64,000 nucleotides of DNA from Candidatus Gottesmanbacteria bacterium GW2011_GWA2_43_14. Lineage in GTDB: Bacteria > Patescibacteriota > Microgenomatia > 2-02-FULL-39-11. Shown here piece after piece: positions 10,142 to 57,863 of this stretch. The DNA lies in contig LCFP01000012.1 of NCBI GenBank assembly GCA_000999095.1, positions 4,140-68,139 on the forward strand, given 5' to 3'. The notes beneath the pieces were generated by a model. The model worked only from the letters and a program-made list of their open reading frames with translations. It was not told the origin of the DNA and ran no database searches. Every line of letters begins with the position of its first letter. Position 1 is the stretch's first letter. Position numbers and translations under genes: made by a program.

Positions 10142-11152
10142 ATGGAAGCTGCGATGGCTGACAAAAATCATCCGGAATACCAGTATTTAAATCTGCTTAA
10201 GGATATTCTGGACAACGGCGTCTGGAAAGTATCCCACTCAACAGGTGTTAAGCTGAAAAGCGTCTTCGGCCGGCAGATCAGATTTGATTTGTCCAAGGGC
10301 TTTCCCCTTTTGACCACCAAAAAAGTTTTCAGCCGCGGCATCATCCATGAACTGATCTGGTTTCTCTCAGGCTCCTCCAATATCAAATATCTGGTTGAAA
10401 ATAACGTCCATATCTGGGACGAATGGGCGTACAAAAAATACACCTGGGCGATGGAAGACTCGGCCAAAGGCCGATCGTCCTCTGGACGAAAAAAACAGAT
10501 GCCGATTCCTTATGAAGAATTTATTAAAAAAATAGCCGAAGACAAAAAATTCCTGGAAAAATGGGGGGAACTGGGACCTGTCTACGGAGTTCAATGGCGG
10601 CGCTGGCCTGCCTATGACGAAATGAATAAGGGGAGGATCAAAGAAATTGACCAGCTGGGATGGGCAATTGAAAAAATAAAAAAATATCCCCAGAAAAAGC
10701 ACTATATCATTTCGGCCTGGAATGCAGGTTCAATTTATGAAATGTCAGGCAGCCATTCGGCCTCGATGGTGATTGCGCCCTGCCATACGATGTATCATAT
10801 TAATATTACAGGGGATAAGTTGTCGCTTCTTTTATACCAGAGAAGTGCCGATTCATTCCTGGGCGTGCCCTTTAATATAGCAAGCTATGCCCTGTTGACG
10901 CTGATGCTGGCCCAGGTGACAGGCTATAAGCCAGGTGATTTCGTCCATACTTTCGGCGACATCCATATTTATGAAAACCATTTCGACCAGGTAAAGGAAC
11001 AGCTGAAAAGGACTCCGAAGCCGTTGCCTGTCATGAAGTTAAATCCGGAGATCAAAAACATAGATGATTTTAAATTTACTGATTTTGAATTATCGGGTTA
11101 CGATCCGCACCCGCCGATAAAAGGCGAGATCACGGTCGTAGGAGGATTTTAA
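10142..11152 (+). CDS. thyA: Thymidylate synthase (ThyA). Start uncertain (10142 or 10154).
   Basis: FGRQIRFDL, the PCH catalytic Cys motif (MVIAPCHTMYHINI), and SADSFLGVPFNIASYALLT. Confidence 0.85.
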   Translation: MEAAMADKNHPEYQYLNLLKDILDNGVWKVSHSTGVKLKSVFGRQIRFDLSKGFPLLTTKKVFSRGIIHELIWFLSGSSNIKYLVENNVHIWDEWAYKKYTWAMEDSAKGRSSSGRKKQMPIPYEEFIKKIAEDKKFLEKWGELGPVYGVQWRRWPAYDEMNKGRIKEIDQLGWAIEKIKKYPQKKHYIISAWNAGSIYEMSGSHSASMVIAPCHTMYHINITGDKLSLLLYQRSADSFLGVPFNIASYALLTLMLAQVTGYKPGDFVHTFGDIHIYENHFDQVKEQLKRTPKPLPVMKLNPEIKNIDDFKFTDFELSGYDPHPPIKGEITVVGGF

Positions 11153-39318: not shown

Positions 39319-39723
39319 ATGGAAGCCACATCTTATACCAGGTATATCAGAATATCGCCGAAAAAGATCAAGTCGTTGGCCAAACTGACGGTCGGTTTGC
39401 CTGTTTCTGCAGCCCTTGACAGACTATCTCTGACTGCCGGCAAACCGGGACAGCTTTTAATAAAAGCTATTGCTTCAGCCAAAGCAAATGCCGTTAACAA
39501 TCTAAAACTCTCCGAAAAAAACCTGGTTATCAGGGAAGTATCAATAGAAAAAGGTCCTTTTTTCAAAAGATTCCAGCCGGTTGCCCGGGGAATGGCCCAT
39601 TCATATAAAAAAAGAACAAGCCATTTGAAAATCAGGGTAGCAGAGAAAGAAGTGAAGGAAGAAGTTAAAAAAGTTTCGGCCAAAGGCCGATTGTCCATTG
39701 GACAAAAAAAGAGGTCCGCCTAA
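39319..39723 (+). CDS. rplV: Ribosomal protein L22 (C-terminal tail ...VSAKGRLSIGQKKRSA)
   Basis: L22 family. Confidence 0.9.
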   Translation: MEATSYTRYIRISPKKIKSLAKLTVGLPVSAALDRLSLTAGKPGQLLIKAIASAKANAVNNLKLSEKNLVIREVSIEKGPFFKRFQPVARGMAHSYKKRTSHLKIRVAEKEVKEEVKKVSAKGRLSIGQKKRSA

Positions 39724-41615: not shown

Positions 41616-41954
41616 ATGATGAAATTTAAAAAAGGCGATGAAGTACTGATTACTGCCGGCAAGGATAAAGGCAAGAAAGGCAAAATTGAAAGAATTTATG
41701 CTTCTTCATCCACAGCCCTTATACCGGGCCTGAATCTTTTTAAAAGGCATCTTAAAAAAAAGGATGAAAAAAATCCGGGAGGCATCATCGAGTTTCCCAG
41801 AGCTCTTTCTTTCGGCAAATTGGCACTGATCTGTTCAAAATGCGGCAAACCCACCAGAGCCGGTTTTAAGATCGATAAAAAAGTATCGGACAAAGGCCGA
41901 TTGTCCTTTGGGCAAAAAAAAAGAATCTGCCGTAAATGCGGCGGACTCTTATAA
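41616..41954 (+). CDS. rplX: Ribosomal protein L24 with a C-terminal Cys4 (zinc-ribbon-like) extension
   Basis: MMKFKKGDEV KOW motif. The tail reads CSKCGKPTRAGFKIDKKVSDKGRLSFGQKKRICRKCGG. Confidence 0.85.
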   Translation: MMKFKKGDEVLITAGKDKGKKGKIERIYASSSTALIPGLNLFKRHLKKKDEKNPGGIIEFPRALSFGKLALICSKCGKPTRAGFKIDKKVSDKGRLSFGQKKRICRKCGGLL

Positions 41955-56640: not shown

Positions 56641-57021
56641 TTAAGCGGTTGGATTATAAGTATCAATGTCTTTCATGGGGTAATGTTTCAGATTAAGGGA
56701 AACTAAGATCAGATTATTGACGTTTGCGGTTCCCGCGATCAGACAGTCCAGCAAGTTGAGATTTTTAAATTTCTTATTGAATTGTTGGAAATACAGTCCT
56801 GCCTGTTTGGCAACCGGAGATGTTATATCCCAAGCCTGAAATTCATTTAAAACATTTTCTGTTTTGAGCAGTTCGGAAGGGTATATATTTTTGTATATTT
56901 CGGCAATGGTAACAGTTGAGATGGAAAGTGAGTCTTTATTTTTCAGCTGAAGCAGTAAATCCGTAAATTTTTTATTCCCCCTTAAGACCCAGATCAGGAC
57001 ATCCGTATCAATTAAATACAT
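56641..57021 (-). CDS. vapC: PIN-domain toxin VapC
   Basis: MYLIDTDVLIWVL plus later acidic residues. Confidence 0.75.
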   Translation of the reverse strand: MYLIDTDVLIWVLRGNKKFTDLLLQLKNKDSLSISTVTIAEIYKNIYPSELLKTENVLNEFQAWDITSPVAKQAGLYFQQFNKKFKNLNLLDCLIAGTANVNNLILVSLNLKHYPMKDIDTYNPTA

Positions 57022-57023
57022 GG

Positions 57024-57302
57024 TTAGTAATTTCTGTCTGAGGCTTTTCTTTCCTTTTCAACCCATGCGGAAACGTCTTTTTTAGTCCGCCATTCGGGAT
57101 GGTTAGCTGCTGTCAGGACACCGCTTGCAATTTTCAGTGCTTTTGTAAAAGTGTCGGGGTTGAATTTTTTCTTGCCGACAAGCTGGGCAATTTTTTCGTC
57201 TTTTTTTTCGTCCCGCAATATTATCGTATGGCCGTCTCTGGCTTTGGCGATATAGTCTGCGATTTGCTGGCGGAACTGGCTGATAGAAACGTTTATGATC
57301 AT
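57024..57302 (-). CDS. Phd/YefM-like antitoxin
   Basis: 92 aa. Its stop lies 2 nt before vapC. N-terminal ISISQFRQQIADYIAKA..GHTIIL. Confidence 0.6.
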   Translation of the reverse strand: MIINVSISQFRQQIADYIAKARDGHTIILRDEKKDEKIAQLVGKKKFNPDTFTKALKIASGVLTAANHPEWRTKKDVSAWVEKERKASDRNY

Positions 57303-57370
57303 TGGTTAATATTAGTACATATTGTACATTTTGTCAATCTCAGACGGATCTTATTTAACGCTTTTCTGTG

Positions 57371-57443
57371 TCGGGGCGACACGATTTGAACGTGCGACCA
57401 CACGACCCCCAGCCGTGTGCTCTACCAACTGAGCTACGCCCCG
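57371..57443 (-). tRNA. tRNA-Pro (anticodon GGG)
   Basis: Manual fold: acceptor CGGGGCG/CGCCCCG, U8 A9, D-arm GCUC-AGUUGGUA-GAGC, anticodon stem CACGG/UCGUG with loop CU-GGG-GG, T-arm GCACG-UUCAAAU-CGUGU, discriminator A. CCA is not encoded. Confidence 0.8.
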
Positions 57444-57703
57444 ATATTTTTACTCTCTATTAACTTCAAAATTAATTCTTTTATTTGTTTTCCAAAACCT
57501 GTTTTATAAAATTTTTCTCGTAACTTTGCATCCTTTTCGCATTGGTATTTTTCGAAATATTTTAATAAGAAAGGGCCGTTATATCGTGACCATTGATTTG
57601 ACCCGTTATTATGTTCATTGACTCGAATTTTCGGAATTTTTGTTGTTGATCCGACATATACCTTTCCATTCTTTTTACTTTTCATAAAGTAAAGGTAAGG
57701 CAT
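57434..57703 (-). CDS. GIY-YIG nuclease family protein (small, YhbQ/UPF0213-like)
   Basis: YLYFMKSKKNGKVYVGSTTKIPKIRVNEHN, i.e. GIY...YIG...R..E.H(N). Its last four codons are encoded by the tRNA-Pro 5' end. Confidence 0.7.
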   Translation of the reverse strand: MPYLYFMKSKKNGKVYVGSTTKIPKIRVNEHNNGSNQWSRYNGPFLLKYFEKYQCEKDAKLREKFYKTGFGKQIKELILKLIESKNIGA

Positions 57704-57714
57704 TTTTTAATATT

Positions 57715-57770
57715 TGCTCTACCTCGGCCAAAGGCCGATCAGCCTTTGGCTGAAACTGAGCTACGCCCCG
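57715..57770 (-). other. Partial duplicate of tRNA-Pro nt 1-25, with a 30-nt palindromic hairpin inserted in the D-loop
   Basis: The reverse complement reads CGGGGCGTAGCTCAGTT[tcagccaaaggctgatcggcctttggccgag]GTAGAGCA, matching the tRNA 5' half. The GIY-YIG start codon follows 10 nt later. Confidence 0.7.
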
Positions 57771-57863
57771 TTCCGATTAATCCCTTGTATTTTACCATAC
57801 GTTATGCCAGAATGGTTTTGATTTTCTGCCCCCTATAAACTTTTTAACGGAAGGAGACTCTCA

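What the first reader, a model, noticed from the sequence alone, without database searches (positions are those of the whole stretch)
57371..57770. GIY-YIG nuclease gene sandwiched between tRNA-Pro(GGG) and a partial duplicate of the tRNA 5' half
The complete tRNA-Pro (57371-57443, -) donates its first 10 nt to the last four codons (..IGA*) of an 89-aa GIY-YIG (YhbQ-like) gene. Upstream of that gene, in the direction of transcription, lies CGGGGCGTAGCTCAGTT + [30-nt perfect palindromic hairpin GCCAAAGGC...GCCTTTGGC] + GTAGAGCA (57715-57770). This is a copy of tRNA nt 1-25 with a hairpin inserted in the D-loop. The 17-nt exact direct repeats flanking a nuclease gene look like the footprint of a nuclease-associated insertion into a tRNA gene that regenerated the target. 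Alternatively it is a duplicated tRNA promoter-proximal segment.
Basis: seen in the sequence. Interest (0 to 1): 0.65.

Follow-up and report, generated by a model that had tools for sequence, protein, structure and literature searches.

The report
Mini nuclease gene embedded in tRNA
A tiny selfish nuclease gene and its 30-base twin-hairpin repeat have lodged inside a proline tRNA gene and rebuilt an intact tRNA copy behind them; the same layout recurs at many tRNA genes across ultra-small (CPR) bacteria and I found no description of it.

Summary
An 89-aa GIY-YIG ORF (57434-57703, minus strand) reads into an intact tRNA-Pro(GGG) and stops on tRNA nt 8-10 (TAG). Upstream, behind the ancestral tRNA promoter, lie tRNA nt 1-17, a 30-nt insert and nt 18-26.

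The insert is two tandem 15-nt mini-hairpins, not one long palindrome. It is a dispersed mobile repeat. Three more copies sit in frame in thyA, rplV and rplX, and the closest thyA homologues lack it cleanly.

The closest recA relative (76% identity) has the same promoter and tRNA but no nuclease gene, so an empty site exists. All 45 complete-ORF loci found in Patescibacteria, Bacteroidota and one MAG labelled Bathyarchaeia show the same design at about 11 tRNA isotypes. The ORF sits between an intact tRNA and a hairpin-interrupted, usually truncated copy.

The closest described system is the Ssn family of small GIY-YIG nucleases, which cut single-stranded DNA beside hairpin repeats. That paper never mentions tRNA, and its repeat motif does not match here.

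Best reading: a selfish nuclease-repeat pair that colonises tRNA genes by recombination and regenerates the target. The insertion is well supported. The mechanism is inferred.

The parts
57371..57443 (-). Intact tRNA-Pro(GGG), the regenerated functional copy. Its nt 1-10 are the last 10 nt of the nuclease ORF, and nt 8-10 (TAG) form the stop codon.
   Evidence: ARAGORN; Rfam RF00005 at 61.4 bits, full length; sequence.
57434..57703 (-). 89-aa single-domain GIY-YIG nuclease ORF with no stop codon of its own. It has low G+C.
   Evidence: Pfam PF01541 at E=4e-13. The AlphaFold model has pLDDT 95.2, and strand 3-9 carries the first motif Tyr, so the 89-aa start is the right one. Foldseek top hits are UPF0213, Slx1, I-TevI and UvrC. 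There are 22 invariant residues among 23 homologues, including Y16, R27, H31 and E63. G+C is 0.31-0.35.
57704..57714 (-). 11-nt spacer AATATTAAAAA between the tRNA remnant and the ATG.
   Evidence: Sequence.
57715..57723 (-). Copy of tRNA nt 18-26 (GGTAGAGCA), the 3' part of the remnant D arm.
   Evidence: Sequence compared with the intact tRNA.
57724..57753 (.). Twin mini-hairpin repeat: two 15-nt units, each with a 6-bp stem and a 3-nt loop. It is inserted cleanly between tRNA nt 17 and 18.
   Evidence: Family consensus TCNGCC-ANA-GGCNGA + YCNGCC-TNT-GGCNGR with co-varying stems.
57754..57770 (-). Copy of tRNA nt 1-17, at the position of the ancestral tRNA 5' end.
   Evidence: Exact 17-nt direct repeat. 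Same distance from recA as the intact tRNA in the empty site L057.
57789..57797 (-). Extended -10-like element TGGTAAAAT inside a promoter block that is conserved in filled and empty relatives. It is the presumed promoter for remnant, ORF and tRNA.
   Evidence: Alignment A2: the block CATTCT..ATGGTAAAATACAA is conserved in window, L057, L011 and L012. The simple scan found no promoter-like or terminator-like site between here and the tRNA. Function is inferred.
10460..10489 (.). Second copy of the twin-hairpin repeat, in frame in thyA, encoding SAKGRSSSGR.
   Evidence: The five closest ThyA homologues (83-88% identity) lack exactly these 10 aa, and the DNA alignment shows a clean 30-nt insertion without target duplication.
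39676..39705 (.). Third copy, in frame in the C-terminal tail of rplV (L22), encoding SAKGRLSIGQ.
   Evidence: The segment was not seen in 12 L22 homologues, but their tails are too variable for a clean test.
41886..41915 (.). Fourth, slightly degenerate copy, in frame in the tail of rplX (L24), encoding SDKGRLSFGQ.

Best explanation
The locus is a small selfish element inside the tRNA-Pro(GGG) gene of a Gottesmanbacteria-like (Patescibacteria/CPR) genome. The element is a catalytic-domain-only GIY-YIG nuclease gene together with its cognate 30-nt twin-hairpin repeat.

Shown:
- The ancestral tRNA began right behind a conserved promoter next to recA.
- In the window only tRNA nt 1-26 remain there, split by the hairpin pair between nt 17 and 18.
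- The nuclease ORF follows, and then a complete tRNA.
- The ORF runs into that tRNA and uses the conserved U8-A9-G10 as its stop codon.

Inferred expression:
- Remnant, ORF and tRNA are co-transcribed from the tRNA promoter.
- RNase P releases the tRNA. This cut removes the ORF's stop codon, so it may limit nuclease expression.

Inferred mechanism, by analogy with Ssn nucleases:
- The protein binds the mini-hairpins when the DNA is single-stranded and nicks next to them.
- The break lies inside tRNA-homologous sequence and provokes RecA-dependent recombination with a tRNA gene.
- A single-crossover (Campbell-like) or homing-like event between an element carrying [ORF + hairpin-interrupted tRNA copy] and a resident tRNA yields one of two products.
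- If the exchange is 5' of the hairpin, the product is remnant-hairpin-ORF-tRNA, as in the window.
- If the exchange is 3' of the hairpin, the product is tRNA-ORF-hairpin-tRNA, the mirror class.
- The highly conserved tRNA sequence acts as a portable homology arm. The duplication keeps the essential, probably single-copy tRNA intact and ties the ORF to it.
- The hairpin pair alone also spreads as a non-autonomous 30-nt unit. It inserts after 5'-TT on one strand and is tolerated in frame in proteins.
For: Anatomy of the locus.

Empty site with the same promoter and tRNA position.

Recurrence:
- All 45 complete-ORF loci have a co-oriented tRNA gene or tRNA fragment touching the ORF.
- The isotypes are Pro, Val, Ala, Asp, His, Gly, Ile, Gln, Met, Phe and Arg.
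- The ORF ends on tRNA TAG 8-10 in 13 loci and on a stop at nt 21-23 in 10 (TAG in 9, TAA in L043).
- 36 of 45 loci have a twin hairpin and 44 of 45 have at least one unit. Of the 43 pairs listed, nearly all lie within tRNA-derived sequence next to the ORF; a second pair in L021 lies between the ORF stop and the intact tRNA.
- Mirror class: L018, L022, L027, L030, L032, L033, L036, L038 and L047 have an intact tRNA, then the ORF, then a full tRNA copy with the hairpin pair in its D loop.

The hairpin is a structure under selection. Stem positions 3/13 co-vary (A-T 18, G-C 17, C-G 8). Loops are A-N-A in unit 1 and T-N-T in unit 2.

The hairpin is mobile and specific to these genomes:
- Four twin pairs (one degenerate) lie in 64 kb; six units are perfect, against a mean of 0.7 perfect units in shuffles.
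- Control recA loci (360 kb) have no twin pairs.
- The thyA copy is a clean 30-nt insertion polymorphism.

Signs of recent recombination at these elements:
- L004 and L002 are 100% identical for 1282 nt, starting exactly at the first hairpin base. Upstream of that they are unrelated.
- L047 has a 410-nt tandem duplication with two identical ORFs.
- L051 has tandem arrays of hairpin-bearing tRNA-Met fragments.

Target switching: sister ORFs from the same candidate phylum sit at different tRNAs, Val and Asp, in Levybacteria and in Moranbacteria.

The nuclease is probably active. Catalytic residues are invariant, the fold is confident, and spacing matches SsnA (Y5/Y16/E63 here, Y6/Y17/E64 there).

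Precedents:
- Ssn nucleases bind hairpin repeats in single-stranded DNA and cut just upstream (PMC11893778).
- The GIY-YIG homing endonuclease SegB is enriched next to tRNA genes and drives duplication of a tRNA-segB segment (PMC13096335).
Against: - No biochemical activity is known for this clade. GIY-YIG enzymes are hydrolytic and cannot rejoin DNA, so clean 30-nt insertions without target duplication are not explained by the nuclease alone.
- The protein has no DNA-binding domain.
- The regenerated tRNA is itself an intact potential target. Classical homing immunity, in which the insertion destroys the site, therefore does not apply simply.
- The left homology arm is only about 26 nt and is split by the hairpin.
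- No near-identical elements were found at two different tRNAs.
- No copy was found on phages, viral contigs or true plasmids, so no vector for horizontal spread is known.
- The element at recA-tRNA-Pro(GGG) is shared by several Microgenomates lineages at 62-67% protein identity. That fits long vertical residence and therefore low mobility.
- The published Ssn repeat motif does not match.
Confidence: 0.6

Rival explanations
1. Domesticated host nuclease. The GIY-YIG protein is an Ssn-like cellular enzyme, for example one that restricts or modulates incoming single-stranded DNA carrying the hairpin repeats in these DNA-scavenging bacteria. It was fixed long ago next to tRNA genes only because that gives strong co-expression. 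The tRNA remnant is a fossil and nothing moves today.
For: - The recA-tRNA-Pro(GGG) position is conserved in several Microgenomates.
- Catalytic residues are under strong conservation.
- SsnA in Neisseria has such a host-level role.
- No phage or plasmid copies were found.
- Remnants often diverge from the intact copy, which implies old events.
Against: - Eleven different tRNA isotypes are occupied.
- Three distinct architectures exist.
- Empty sites are interleaved with filled ones.
- There are decaying copies (L049) and recent tandem duplications (L047).
- G+C is low.
- An identical element sits in two contexts with the breakpoint at the hairpin edge.
- Domestication and residual mobility do not exclude each other.
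Confidence: 0.22
2. RNA-level function. The hairpin-bearing tRNA remnant is a structured 5' leader that acts in processing, stability or translation control. Alternatively the nuclease acts on tRNA or precursor RNA rather than DNA.
For: - The remnant keeps the D stem around the hairpins in the window.
- The ORF's stop codon lies inside the tRNA, which couples translation to RNase P processing (inference).
- A GIY-YIG::TrmH (Gm18, D loop) fusion was noted in the 2006 survey of the superfamily (PMC1564403).
Against: - The same hairpin pair occurs in frame inside thyA, rplV and rplX.
- In other loci it sits at different tRNA positions: nt 8, 12, 13, 17, the T arm and the anticodon loop.
- Several remnants lack the D-stem partner (L011, L013).
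- SsnA does not touch RNA.
Confidence: 0.08
3. Scar of an integrase-type integrative element, with an att duplication in a tRNA gene, most of which has since been deleted.
For: Direct repeats of tRNA sequence flanking foreign, low-G+C DNA are the hallmark of such islands (established knowledge).
Against: - The duplicated part is the 5' end, whereas integrases duplicate the 3' part.
- The whole insert is 327 bp with one ORF.
- No integrase-like gene was seen among the called genes in the loci where gene content was listed or in the ORFs flanking the window element. The other loci were not screened for integrases.
- The hairpin repeat is always present.
Confidence: 0.03
4. Split, permuted or intron-containing tRNA gene, or an assembly artefact.
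For: tRNA sequence is interrupted by a long insert.
Against: - A complete, high-scoring tRNA is encoded contiguously.
- The fragment duplicates it rather than complementing it.
- The arrangement is present in three assemblies and dozens of other genomes.
Confidence: 0.01

Closest known systems
Ssn family of site-specific single-stranded DNA nucleases (SsnA with NTS/SRM hairpin repeats; Chenal et al. 2025, PMC11893778)
   Same: - It is a single-domain GIY-YIG protein of about 90 aa with no DNA-binding domain.
- Catalytic residue spacing is the same.
- The gene lies beside short hairpin repeats with 3-nt loops.
- Those repeats are dispersed in the genome and occasionally sit inside genes.
- A Sinorhizobium homologue (38% identity; hhalign probability 96.6%) is flanked on both sides by repeats containing an NTS-like hairpin.
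   Different: - The repeats differ: 15-nt units in inverted pairs, TCNGCC-ANA-GGCNGA.
- The published SRM pattern matches 0 of 45 loci and has 0 hits in the window.
- The gene is embedded in a tRNA gene duplication and overlaps the tRNA. The Ssn paper never mentions tRNA.
- Assignment to CDD cd10448 could not be tested.
Free-standing GIY-YIG homing endonucleases, especially phage SegB in tRNA gene clusters (PMC13096335; Brok-Volchanskaya 2008, cited there)
   Same: - A GIY-YIG nuclease gene sits next to tRNA genes.
- Presence/absence polymorphism occurs at a conserved site.
- A tRNA+nuclease segment is duplicated, with microhomology between the ORF 3' end and the tRNA 5' end.
   Different: - SegB is a larger protein than the 89-aa ORF here (a 28-aa C-terminal truncation is reported for it) and lives in phages.
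- It does not split the tRNA.
- No hairpin repeat is described for it in the parts read.
- No relative of the window protein was found in the phage or viral collections.
REP/BIME with RAYT, IS200/IS605, and Rickettsia palindromic elements (PMC3733652)
   Same: - Short palindromic repeats occur as inverted dimers.
- They are linked to a dedicated nuclease gene.
- Some are inserted in frame in protein-coding genes.
- Insertion occurs 3' of a short target without duplication.
   Different: - The associated enzyme in those systems is an HUH tyrosine transposase that can cut and rejoin. Here it is a hydrolytic GIY-YIG.
- The unit is only 30 nt.
- The nuclease gene sits inside a tRNA duplication.
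Integrase-mediated genomic islands in tRNA genes
   Same: Foreign DNA sits in a tRNA gene, flanked by direct repeats of tRNA sequence, with the tRNA regenerated.
   Different: - The 5' part of the tRNA is duplicated, or in other loci any loop region.
- There is no integrase.
- The insert is only 327 bp.

Membership tests
GIY-YIG nuclease superfamily (Pfam PF01541) | Sequence match to the family profile above the curated threshold | tested here: met
   49.8 bits against a cutoff of 22.6, E=4e-13, covering profile positions 1-74 of 78.
GIY-YIG nuclease superfamily (Pfam PF01541) | Alpha/beta fold with a three-stranded sheet, and the motif Tyr, Tyr, Arg and Glu residues conserved | tested here: met
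   The AlphaFold model has pLDDT 95.2 with strands at 3-9, 15-20 and 45-52. Foldseek top hits are UPF0213 BH0048, Slx1, I-TevI and UvrC, though E-values are weak for this small domain. Y16, R27, H31 and E63 are invariant; Y5 is present in the sequences that have the N-terminus.
Ssn family (CDD cd10448) | Single-domain GIY-YIG protein of about 94 aa | tested here: met
   The protein is 89 aa, and Pfam finds no domain outside the GIY-YIG region (T5orf172, PF10544, hits the same stretch below its cutoff). Most of the 150 best family representatives listed are about 80-120 aa.
Ssn family (CDD cd10448) | Assignment to CDD model cd10448 or to the Ssn clade in a GIY-YIG phylogeny | not testable with these tools
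Indirect evidence: 38% identity and hhalign probability 96.6% to a Sinorhizobium homologue flanked by NTS-like repeats.
Ssn family (CDD cd10448) | Gene flanked by SRM repeats (HGTCWY..., the published degenerate pattern) | tested here: not met
   The pattern has 0 hits in the window and 0 of 45 loci within 200 nt of the ORF. The canonical NTS matches as a positive control. A different hairpin repeat lies next to the ORF in 44 of 45 loci.
Ssn family (CDD cd10448) | Cleavage of single-stranded DNA only, a few nt upstream of the hairpin | not testable with these tools
   This needs biochemistry.
UPF0213 / YhbQ-like (CDD cd10456) | Close sequence similarity to EF2693, BH0048 or YhbQ | tested here: inconclusive
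   These are the best solved relatives, but the match is weak: E=1.9e-5 and 4.7e-4 with the family profile. Foldseek gives 27% identity and TM 0.53.
Homing endonuclease gene (free-standing) | Presence/absence polymorphism at an otherwise conserved site | tested here: met
   The window, L011 and L012 are filled. L057, L058 and L090 are empty. RecA identities are similar across both groups.
Homing endonuclease gene (free-standing) | DNA-binding domain that gives a long recognition site | tested here: not met
   Only the catalytic domain is present.
Homing endonuclease gene (free-standing) | Cleavage of the allele lacking the gene, followed by copying through repair | not testable with these tools
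   This needs cleavage and co-transfer assays.
Integrase-type island in a tRNA gene | Tyrosine or serine integrase gene, with duplication of the 3' part of the tRNA | tested here: not met
   The 327-bp insert holds only the GIY-YIG ORF, and no integrase is among the neighbouring genes. In the window the 5' part is duplicated.
REP-RAYT / IS200-IS605 | HUH (Y1) transposase next to the hairpin repeats | tested here: not met
   The adjacent ORF is a GIY-YIG protein.
Split, permuted or intron-containing tRNA gene | No contiguous full-length tRNA; the fragments complement each other | tested here: not met
   A full-length contiguous tRNA is present, and the fragment is a duplicate of its 5' end.

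The most novel reading that the evidence does not exclude
This would be a previously unrecognised class of mobile element. A minimal GIY-YIG nuclease with twin-hairpin recognition sites uses the conserved tRNA sequence itself as a portable homology arm. With it the element integrates into tRNA genes of many isotypes and lineages and pays back the target by duplication. Its 30-nt hairpin pair also acts as a miniature non-autonomous element that inserts in frame into essential protein genes. That would be a GIY-YIG counterpart of the REP/RAYT system, with a new duplicative, recombination-based insertion mode.
Probability: 0.35. Interest if true: 0.85.

Novelty: new variant of a known kind. Interest (0 to 1): 0.72.

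Why it matters
- It gives a concrete genomic niche and a testable biology for a large clade of tiny GIY-YIG nucleases. The profile search counts 1160 clusters (50% identity) at E<=1e-10. The only characterised relatives, the Ssn nucleases, were described in 2025.
- It points to a selfish strategy not described in the papers I could search. The element sits between a tRNA promoter and the tRNA, borrows the tRNA's own bases as a stop codon, and regenerates the essential gene.
- It explains recurrent tRNA 5' fragments and odd N- and C-terminal extensions in CPR gene calls. Peptides such as SAKGR, PKAD and SSVG are hairpin- or tRNA-encoded.
- It shows that essential genes of ultra-small bacteria (thyA, L22, L24) carry mobile 10-codon inserts.
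- If the hairpin specificity holds, each lineage offers a matched pair of nuclease and 15-nt site for single-stranded DNA tools.

Tried and rejected
- A 24-mer search with up to 3 mismatches found no other hairpin copy. This was misleading, because the two units vary independently. A structural scan found the other copies.
- The consensus promoter/terminator scan did not flag the conserved TGGTAAAAT block and found no terminator. The hairpins are therefore not terminator-like.
- Scans of IMG/VR with the family alignment, and of INPHARED phages and PLSDB with the protein, found nothing beyond three weak Sinorhizobium hits.
- The metagenome scan with RecA returned mostly distant bacteria. Only L057, L058, L060 and L090 were informative.
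- The L22 homologue alignment could not show a clean insertion because the tails are too variable. ThyA could.
- The Ssn paper's SRM pattern did not match.
- NCBIfam and PHROGs gave only weak generic homing-endonuclease matches.
- Nine literature searches found no description of GIY-YIG genes embedded in duplicated tRNA genes. The library lacks most subscription journals, so prior description cannot be excluded.
- I considered and rejected a tRNA intron or split tRNA, an integrase att scar, a terminator or attenuator, and an assembly artefact. The reasons are given under the rival explanations.
Full report
**1. The observation**

ARAGORN finds a single tRNA in the window, tRNA-Pro(GGG) at 57370-57443 on the minus strand. 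Rfam places it at 57371-57443 with 61.4 bits over the whole model.

The ORF 57434-57703 (-) encodes 89 aa and matches Pfam GIY-YIG at E=4e-13. Read on the minus strand, it ends ATC GGG GCG TAG. Its last 10 nt are therefore tRNA nt 1-10, and its stop codon is the conserved U8-A9-G10.

Upstream of the ATG, in order, lie:
- an 11-nt spacer;
- GGTAGAGCA, which is tRNA nt 18-26;
- a 30-nt insert;
- CGGGGCGTAGCTCAGTT, which is tRNA nt 1-17.

The 17-mer occurs exactly twice in 64 kb. Shuffles give a mean of 0.05 matches, and none of 100 reaches two. The ORF is 31-35% G+C, against 45-57% around it. The same arrangement is present in two other assemblies.

The fragment copies 26 tRNA nt, not 25. The insert is not a perfect 30-nt palindrome.

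**2. What the hairpin is**

The 30 nt are two tandem 15-nt units, TCAGCC-AAA-GGCTGA and TCGGCC-TTT-GGCCGA. Each has a 6-bp stem and a 3-nt loop. In this copy the two units happen to be similar enough to fold as one long imperfect hairpin as well.

A structural scan shows that the window holds four such twin pairs:
- 10460-10489, in frame in thyA, encoding SAKGRSSSGR;
- 39676-39705, in frame in the tail of rplV, encoding SAKGRLSIGQ;
- 41886-41915, a degenerate copy in frame in the tail of rplX;
- 57724-57753, in the tRNA remnant.

Shuffled sequence gives 0.7 single perfect units on average. Control recA loci totalling 360 kb hold 15 generic units and no twin pairs.

The thyA copy is a true insertion. 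The five closest ThyA homologues (83-88% identity) lack exactly these 10 residues. Only 3 of 119 homologues have residues aligned in those columns, and one more (P0197) carries a near-identical SAKGRSSVGR that the alignment places a few columns away. At the DNA level the insertion is a clean 30 nt with no target duplication. A second lineage (L139) carries a near-identical insert at the same place.

**3. What the nuclease is**

The AlphaFold model is confident, with pLDDT 95.2. Its best structural matches are all GIY-YIG domains: UPF0213 BH0048, Slx1, I-TevI and UvrC. By sequence, the nearest solved proteins are the UPF0213 proteins EF2693 and BH0048, at E=2e-5 and 5e-4.

Among 23 homologues of 46-66% identity, 22 residues are invariant, including the motif residues Y16, R27, H31 and E63. 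A profile search of 1.84 billion cluster representatives finds 1160 clusters at E<=1e-10. Most of the 150 best listed are 80-120 aa. The identical L22 protein is labelled Candidatus Gottesmanbacteria, which names the likely source organism.

**4. The architecture recurs**

Look-ups of homologues and a scan of 185,579 species genomes gave 9 + 47 loci. Almost all are Patescibacteria: Gottesman-, Roizman-, Shapiro-, Collier-, Levy-, Woese-, Curtiss-, Berkel-, Magasanik- and Moranbacteria, plus Saccharibacteria. A few are Bacteroidota, and one is a MAG labelled Bathyarchaeia.

In all 45 loci with a complete ORF, a co-oriented tRNA gene or tRNA fragment touches the ORF. The isotypes are Pro (GGG, TGG, CGG), Val (CAC, GAC, TAC), Ala (GGC, TGC), Asp, His, Gly, Ile, Gln, Met, Phe and Arg.

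Three layouts occur:
- **W, as in the window (about 30 loci).** A tRNA 5' remnant comes first, interrupted by the hairpin pair after nt 8, 12, 13 or 17. Then comes the ORF, then an intact tRNA. The ORF has no stop of its own. It ends on tRNA TAG 8-10 in 13 loci and on a stop at nt 21-23 in 10 (TAG in 9, TAA in L043), which produces the 'SSVG' tails.
- **M, the mirror (9 loci).** An intact tRNA comes first, then the ORF, then a nearly complete second copy with the hairpin pair in its D loop. The ORF reads through nt 1-17 and the 30-nt pair in frame.
- **3'-fragment type (L008/L016, L040, L023, L051, L052, L054).** An intact tRNA comes first, then the ORF, then a 3' fragment. The fragment carries a hairpin in the T arm or after the anticodon loop.

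Twin pairs are found in 36 of 45 loci, and at least one unit in 44 of 45. Of the 43 pairs listed, nearly all lie inside tRNA-derived sequence beside the ORF; a second pair in L021 lies between the ORF stop and the intact tRNA. Unit 1 has an A-N-A loop in 39 of 43 and unit 2 a T-N-T loop in 41 of 43. Stem positions co-vary. The left flank ends in TT or CT in 36 of 43.

**5. Insertion, not ancestral design**

The closest recA relative in the metagenome scan is L057, at 76% RecA identity. It has the same divergent recA, the same promoter block (CATTCT..ATGGTAAAATACAA) and an intact tRNA-Pro(GGG). That tRNA starts 91 nt from recA, against 93 nt for the remnant in the window. L057 has no GIY-YIG gene and no hairpins. 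L058 and L090 are also empty.

Filled relatives (L011 at 75% and L012 at 73% RecA identity) are no closer than the empty ones. They carry the hairpin at nt 12/13 rather than 17/18, and their nuclease is 62-67% identical to the window's. Shapirobacteria have the 3'-fragment layout at the same tRNA. This is a gain-and-loss pattern on an old time scale.

Signs of more recent activity:
- L004 and L002 are 100% identical over 1282 nt starting exactly at the first hairpin base, and are unrelated upstream.
- L047 has two identical ORFs in a 410-nt tandem repeat.
- L051 has arrays of hairpin-bearing tRNA-Met fragments.
- L049 is a decaying copy with an in-frame stop.
- Sister ORFs from the same candidate phylum sit at different tRNAs.

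**6. How it most likely works**

Shown:
- A nuclease gene plus hairpin repeat lies between the ancestral tRNA promoter and a regenerated tRNA.
- The hairpin pair is independently mobile.
- The nuclease is conserved.

Inferred:
- Remnant, ORF and tRNA are co-transcribed. The simple scan finds no promoter-like or terminator-like site in between.
- RNase P releases the tRNA and thereby removes the ORF's stop codon. This would restrict translation to unprocessed precursors.
- By analogy with Ssn nucleases, the protein binds the mini-hairpins in single-stranded DNA and nicks beside them. Ssn enzymes bind a hairpin in single-stranded DNA and cut a few nt upstream.
- The break lies inside tRNA-homologous sequence and triggers recombination with a tRNA gene.

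A single exchange between an element carrying [ORF + hairpin-interrupted tRNA] and a resident tRNA gives layout W or layout M, depending on which side of the hairpin the exchange falls. This accounts for both classes and for the tandem arrays.

Weak points of the mechanism:
- GIY-YIG enzymes cannot rejoin DNA.
- The clean 30-nt insertions are unexplained.
- The regenerated tRNA remains a potential target.
- The left homology arm is short.
- No vector for horizontal transfer was found.

**7. Comparison with known systems**

The closest described system is the Ssn family (PMC11893778). It shares the protein size and single-domain design, the catalytic spacing, and the linkage to dispersed hairpin repeats. 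A Sinorhizobium homologue (38% identity; hhalign probability 96.6%) is flanked by repeats containing an NTS-like hairpin and has no tRNA nearby.

Three points separate this locus from Ssn as described:
- The published SRM pattern matches none of the 45 loci.
- That paper does not mention tRNA at all.
- Assignment to cd10448 could not be tested.

Phage SegB shows that GIY-YIG homing endonucleases associate with tRNA genes and can duplicate tRNA-nuclease segments (PMC13096335). SegB is a larger phage protein. REP/RAYT elements, IS200/IS605 and Rickettsia palindromic elements share the hairpin repeats and the in-frame insertions, but they use HUH transposases (PMC3733652). Integrase islands duplicate the 3' end of a tRNA and carry an integrase.

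Nine full-text searches found no description of this tRNA-embedded layout. The library is incomplete, so an earlier description cannot be excluded.

**8. Verdict**

The locus is one member of a widespread tripartite arrangement that I found undescribed: a minimal GIY-YIG nuclease, a twin-hairpin repeat and a duplicated tRNA segment. I rate it a new variant of a known kind (an Ssn-like nuclease-repeat pair, or a free-standing homing endonuclease). The insertion history is well supported. The mechanism is inferred.

Noticed in passing
window 10460-10489, 39676-39705, 41886-41915: The 30-nt twin-hairpin repeat is inserted in frame in thyA, in the tail of rplV (L22) and in the tail of rplX (L24). 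Each copy adds 10 residues of the form S-A/D-K-G-R-x-S-x-G-R/Q. The thyA copy is absent from the five closest homologues (83-88% identity) and present at the same site in another lineage (L139).
   Followed up: partly
L004 1-157 compared with L002 1-1743: Two assemblies share 1282 identical bases starting exactly at the first base of the hairpin block. Upstream they are unrelated: L004 has a divergent tRNA-Pro(CGG) instead of recA plus the tRNA remnant. This looks like a recent rearrangement with its breakpoint at the hairpin edge. A misassembly is unlikely but not excluded.
   Followed up: partly
L047 2344-3330: An intact tRNA-Ala(TGC) is followed by a 410-nt unit present twice. Each unit has an identical 94-aa GIY-YIG ORF reading through a hairpin pair into a tRNA-Ala copy. 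This is a recent tandem amplification.
   Followed up: partly
L051 2098-2800 and L052, L054 (Bacteroidota): Bacteroidota relatives (36-38% identity) show the same principle with a single hairpin, TCCGCC-TGA-GGCGGA (L051, L052) or TCCGCC-GC-GGCGGA (L054). It is placed after the anticodon loop or in the T loop of repeated tRNA-Met or tRNA-Phe 3' fragments on both sides of the ORF.
   Followed up: partly
P0002, P0008, P0013 and similar database proteins: Many database versions of these proteins carry spurious extensions. N-terminal extensions are translated from the hairpins and tRNA remnant (for example PKADRPLAEA). C-terminal tails are translated from tRNA D arms (SSVG, LGS, IGD).
   Followed up: partly
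window 56641-57302 (-): A Phd/YefM-like antitoxin (92 aa, weak Pfam match) and a PIN-domain toxin (126 aa) lie directly downstream of the tRNA. They have their own sigma-70-like promoter at 57337-57309.
   Followed up: no
L001 1717-2822: In the ENA scaffold that otherwise matches the window, recA aligns in three pieces (residues 1-181 at 100%, 162-276 at 87%, 283-344 at 100%). This suggests frameshifts or strain variation in that assembly.
   Followed up: no
L137 1330-1425 and 1822-1925 (Sinorhizobium sp. K101 replicon): A distant homologue is flanked on both sides by repeats of about 95 nt. They contain the hairpin ATTCCTGTG-ACAAG-CACAGGAAT, which resembles the Neisseria NTS core. The strict published SRM pattern does not match it, and no tRNA lies nearby.
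   Followed up: partly
ThyA homologues P0199, P0203, P0215: Other thyA homologues carry a different short insert (LPAGRHG or PPAGEAG) at the same surface site. The site may be a hot spot for small palindromic insertions.
   Followed up: no
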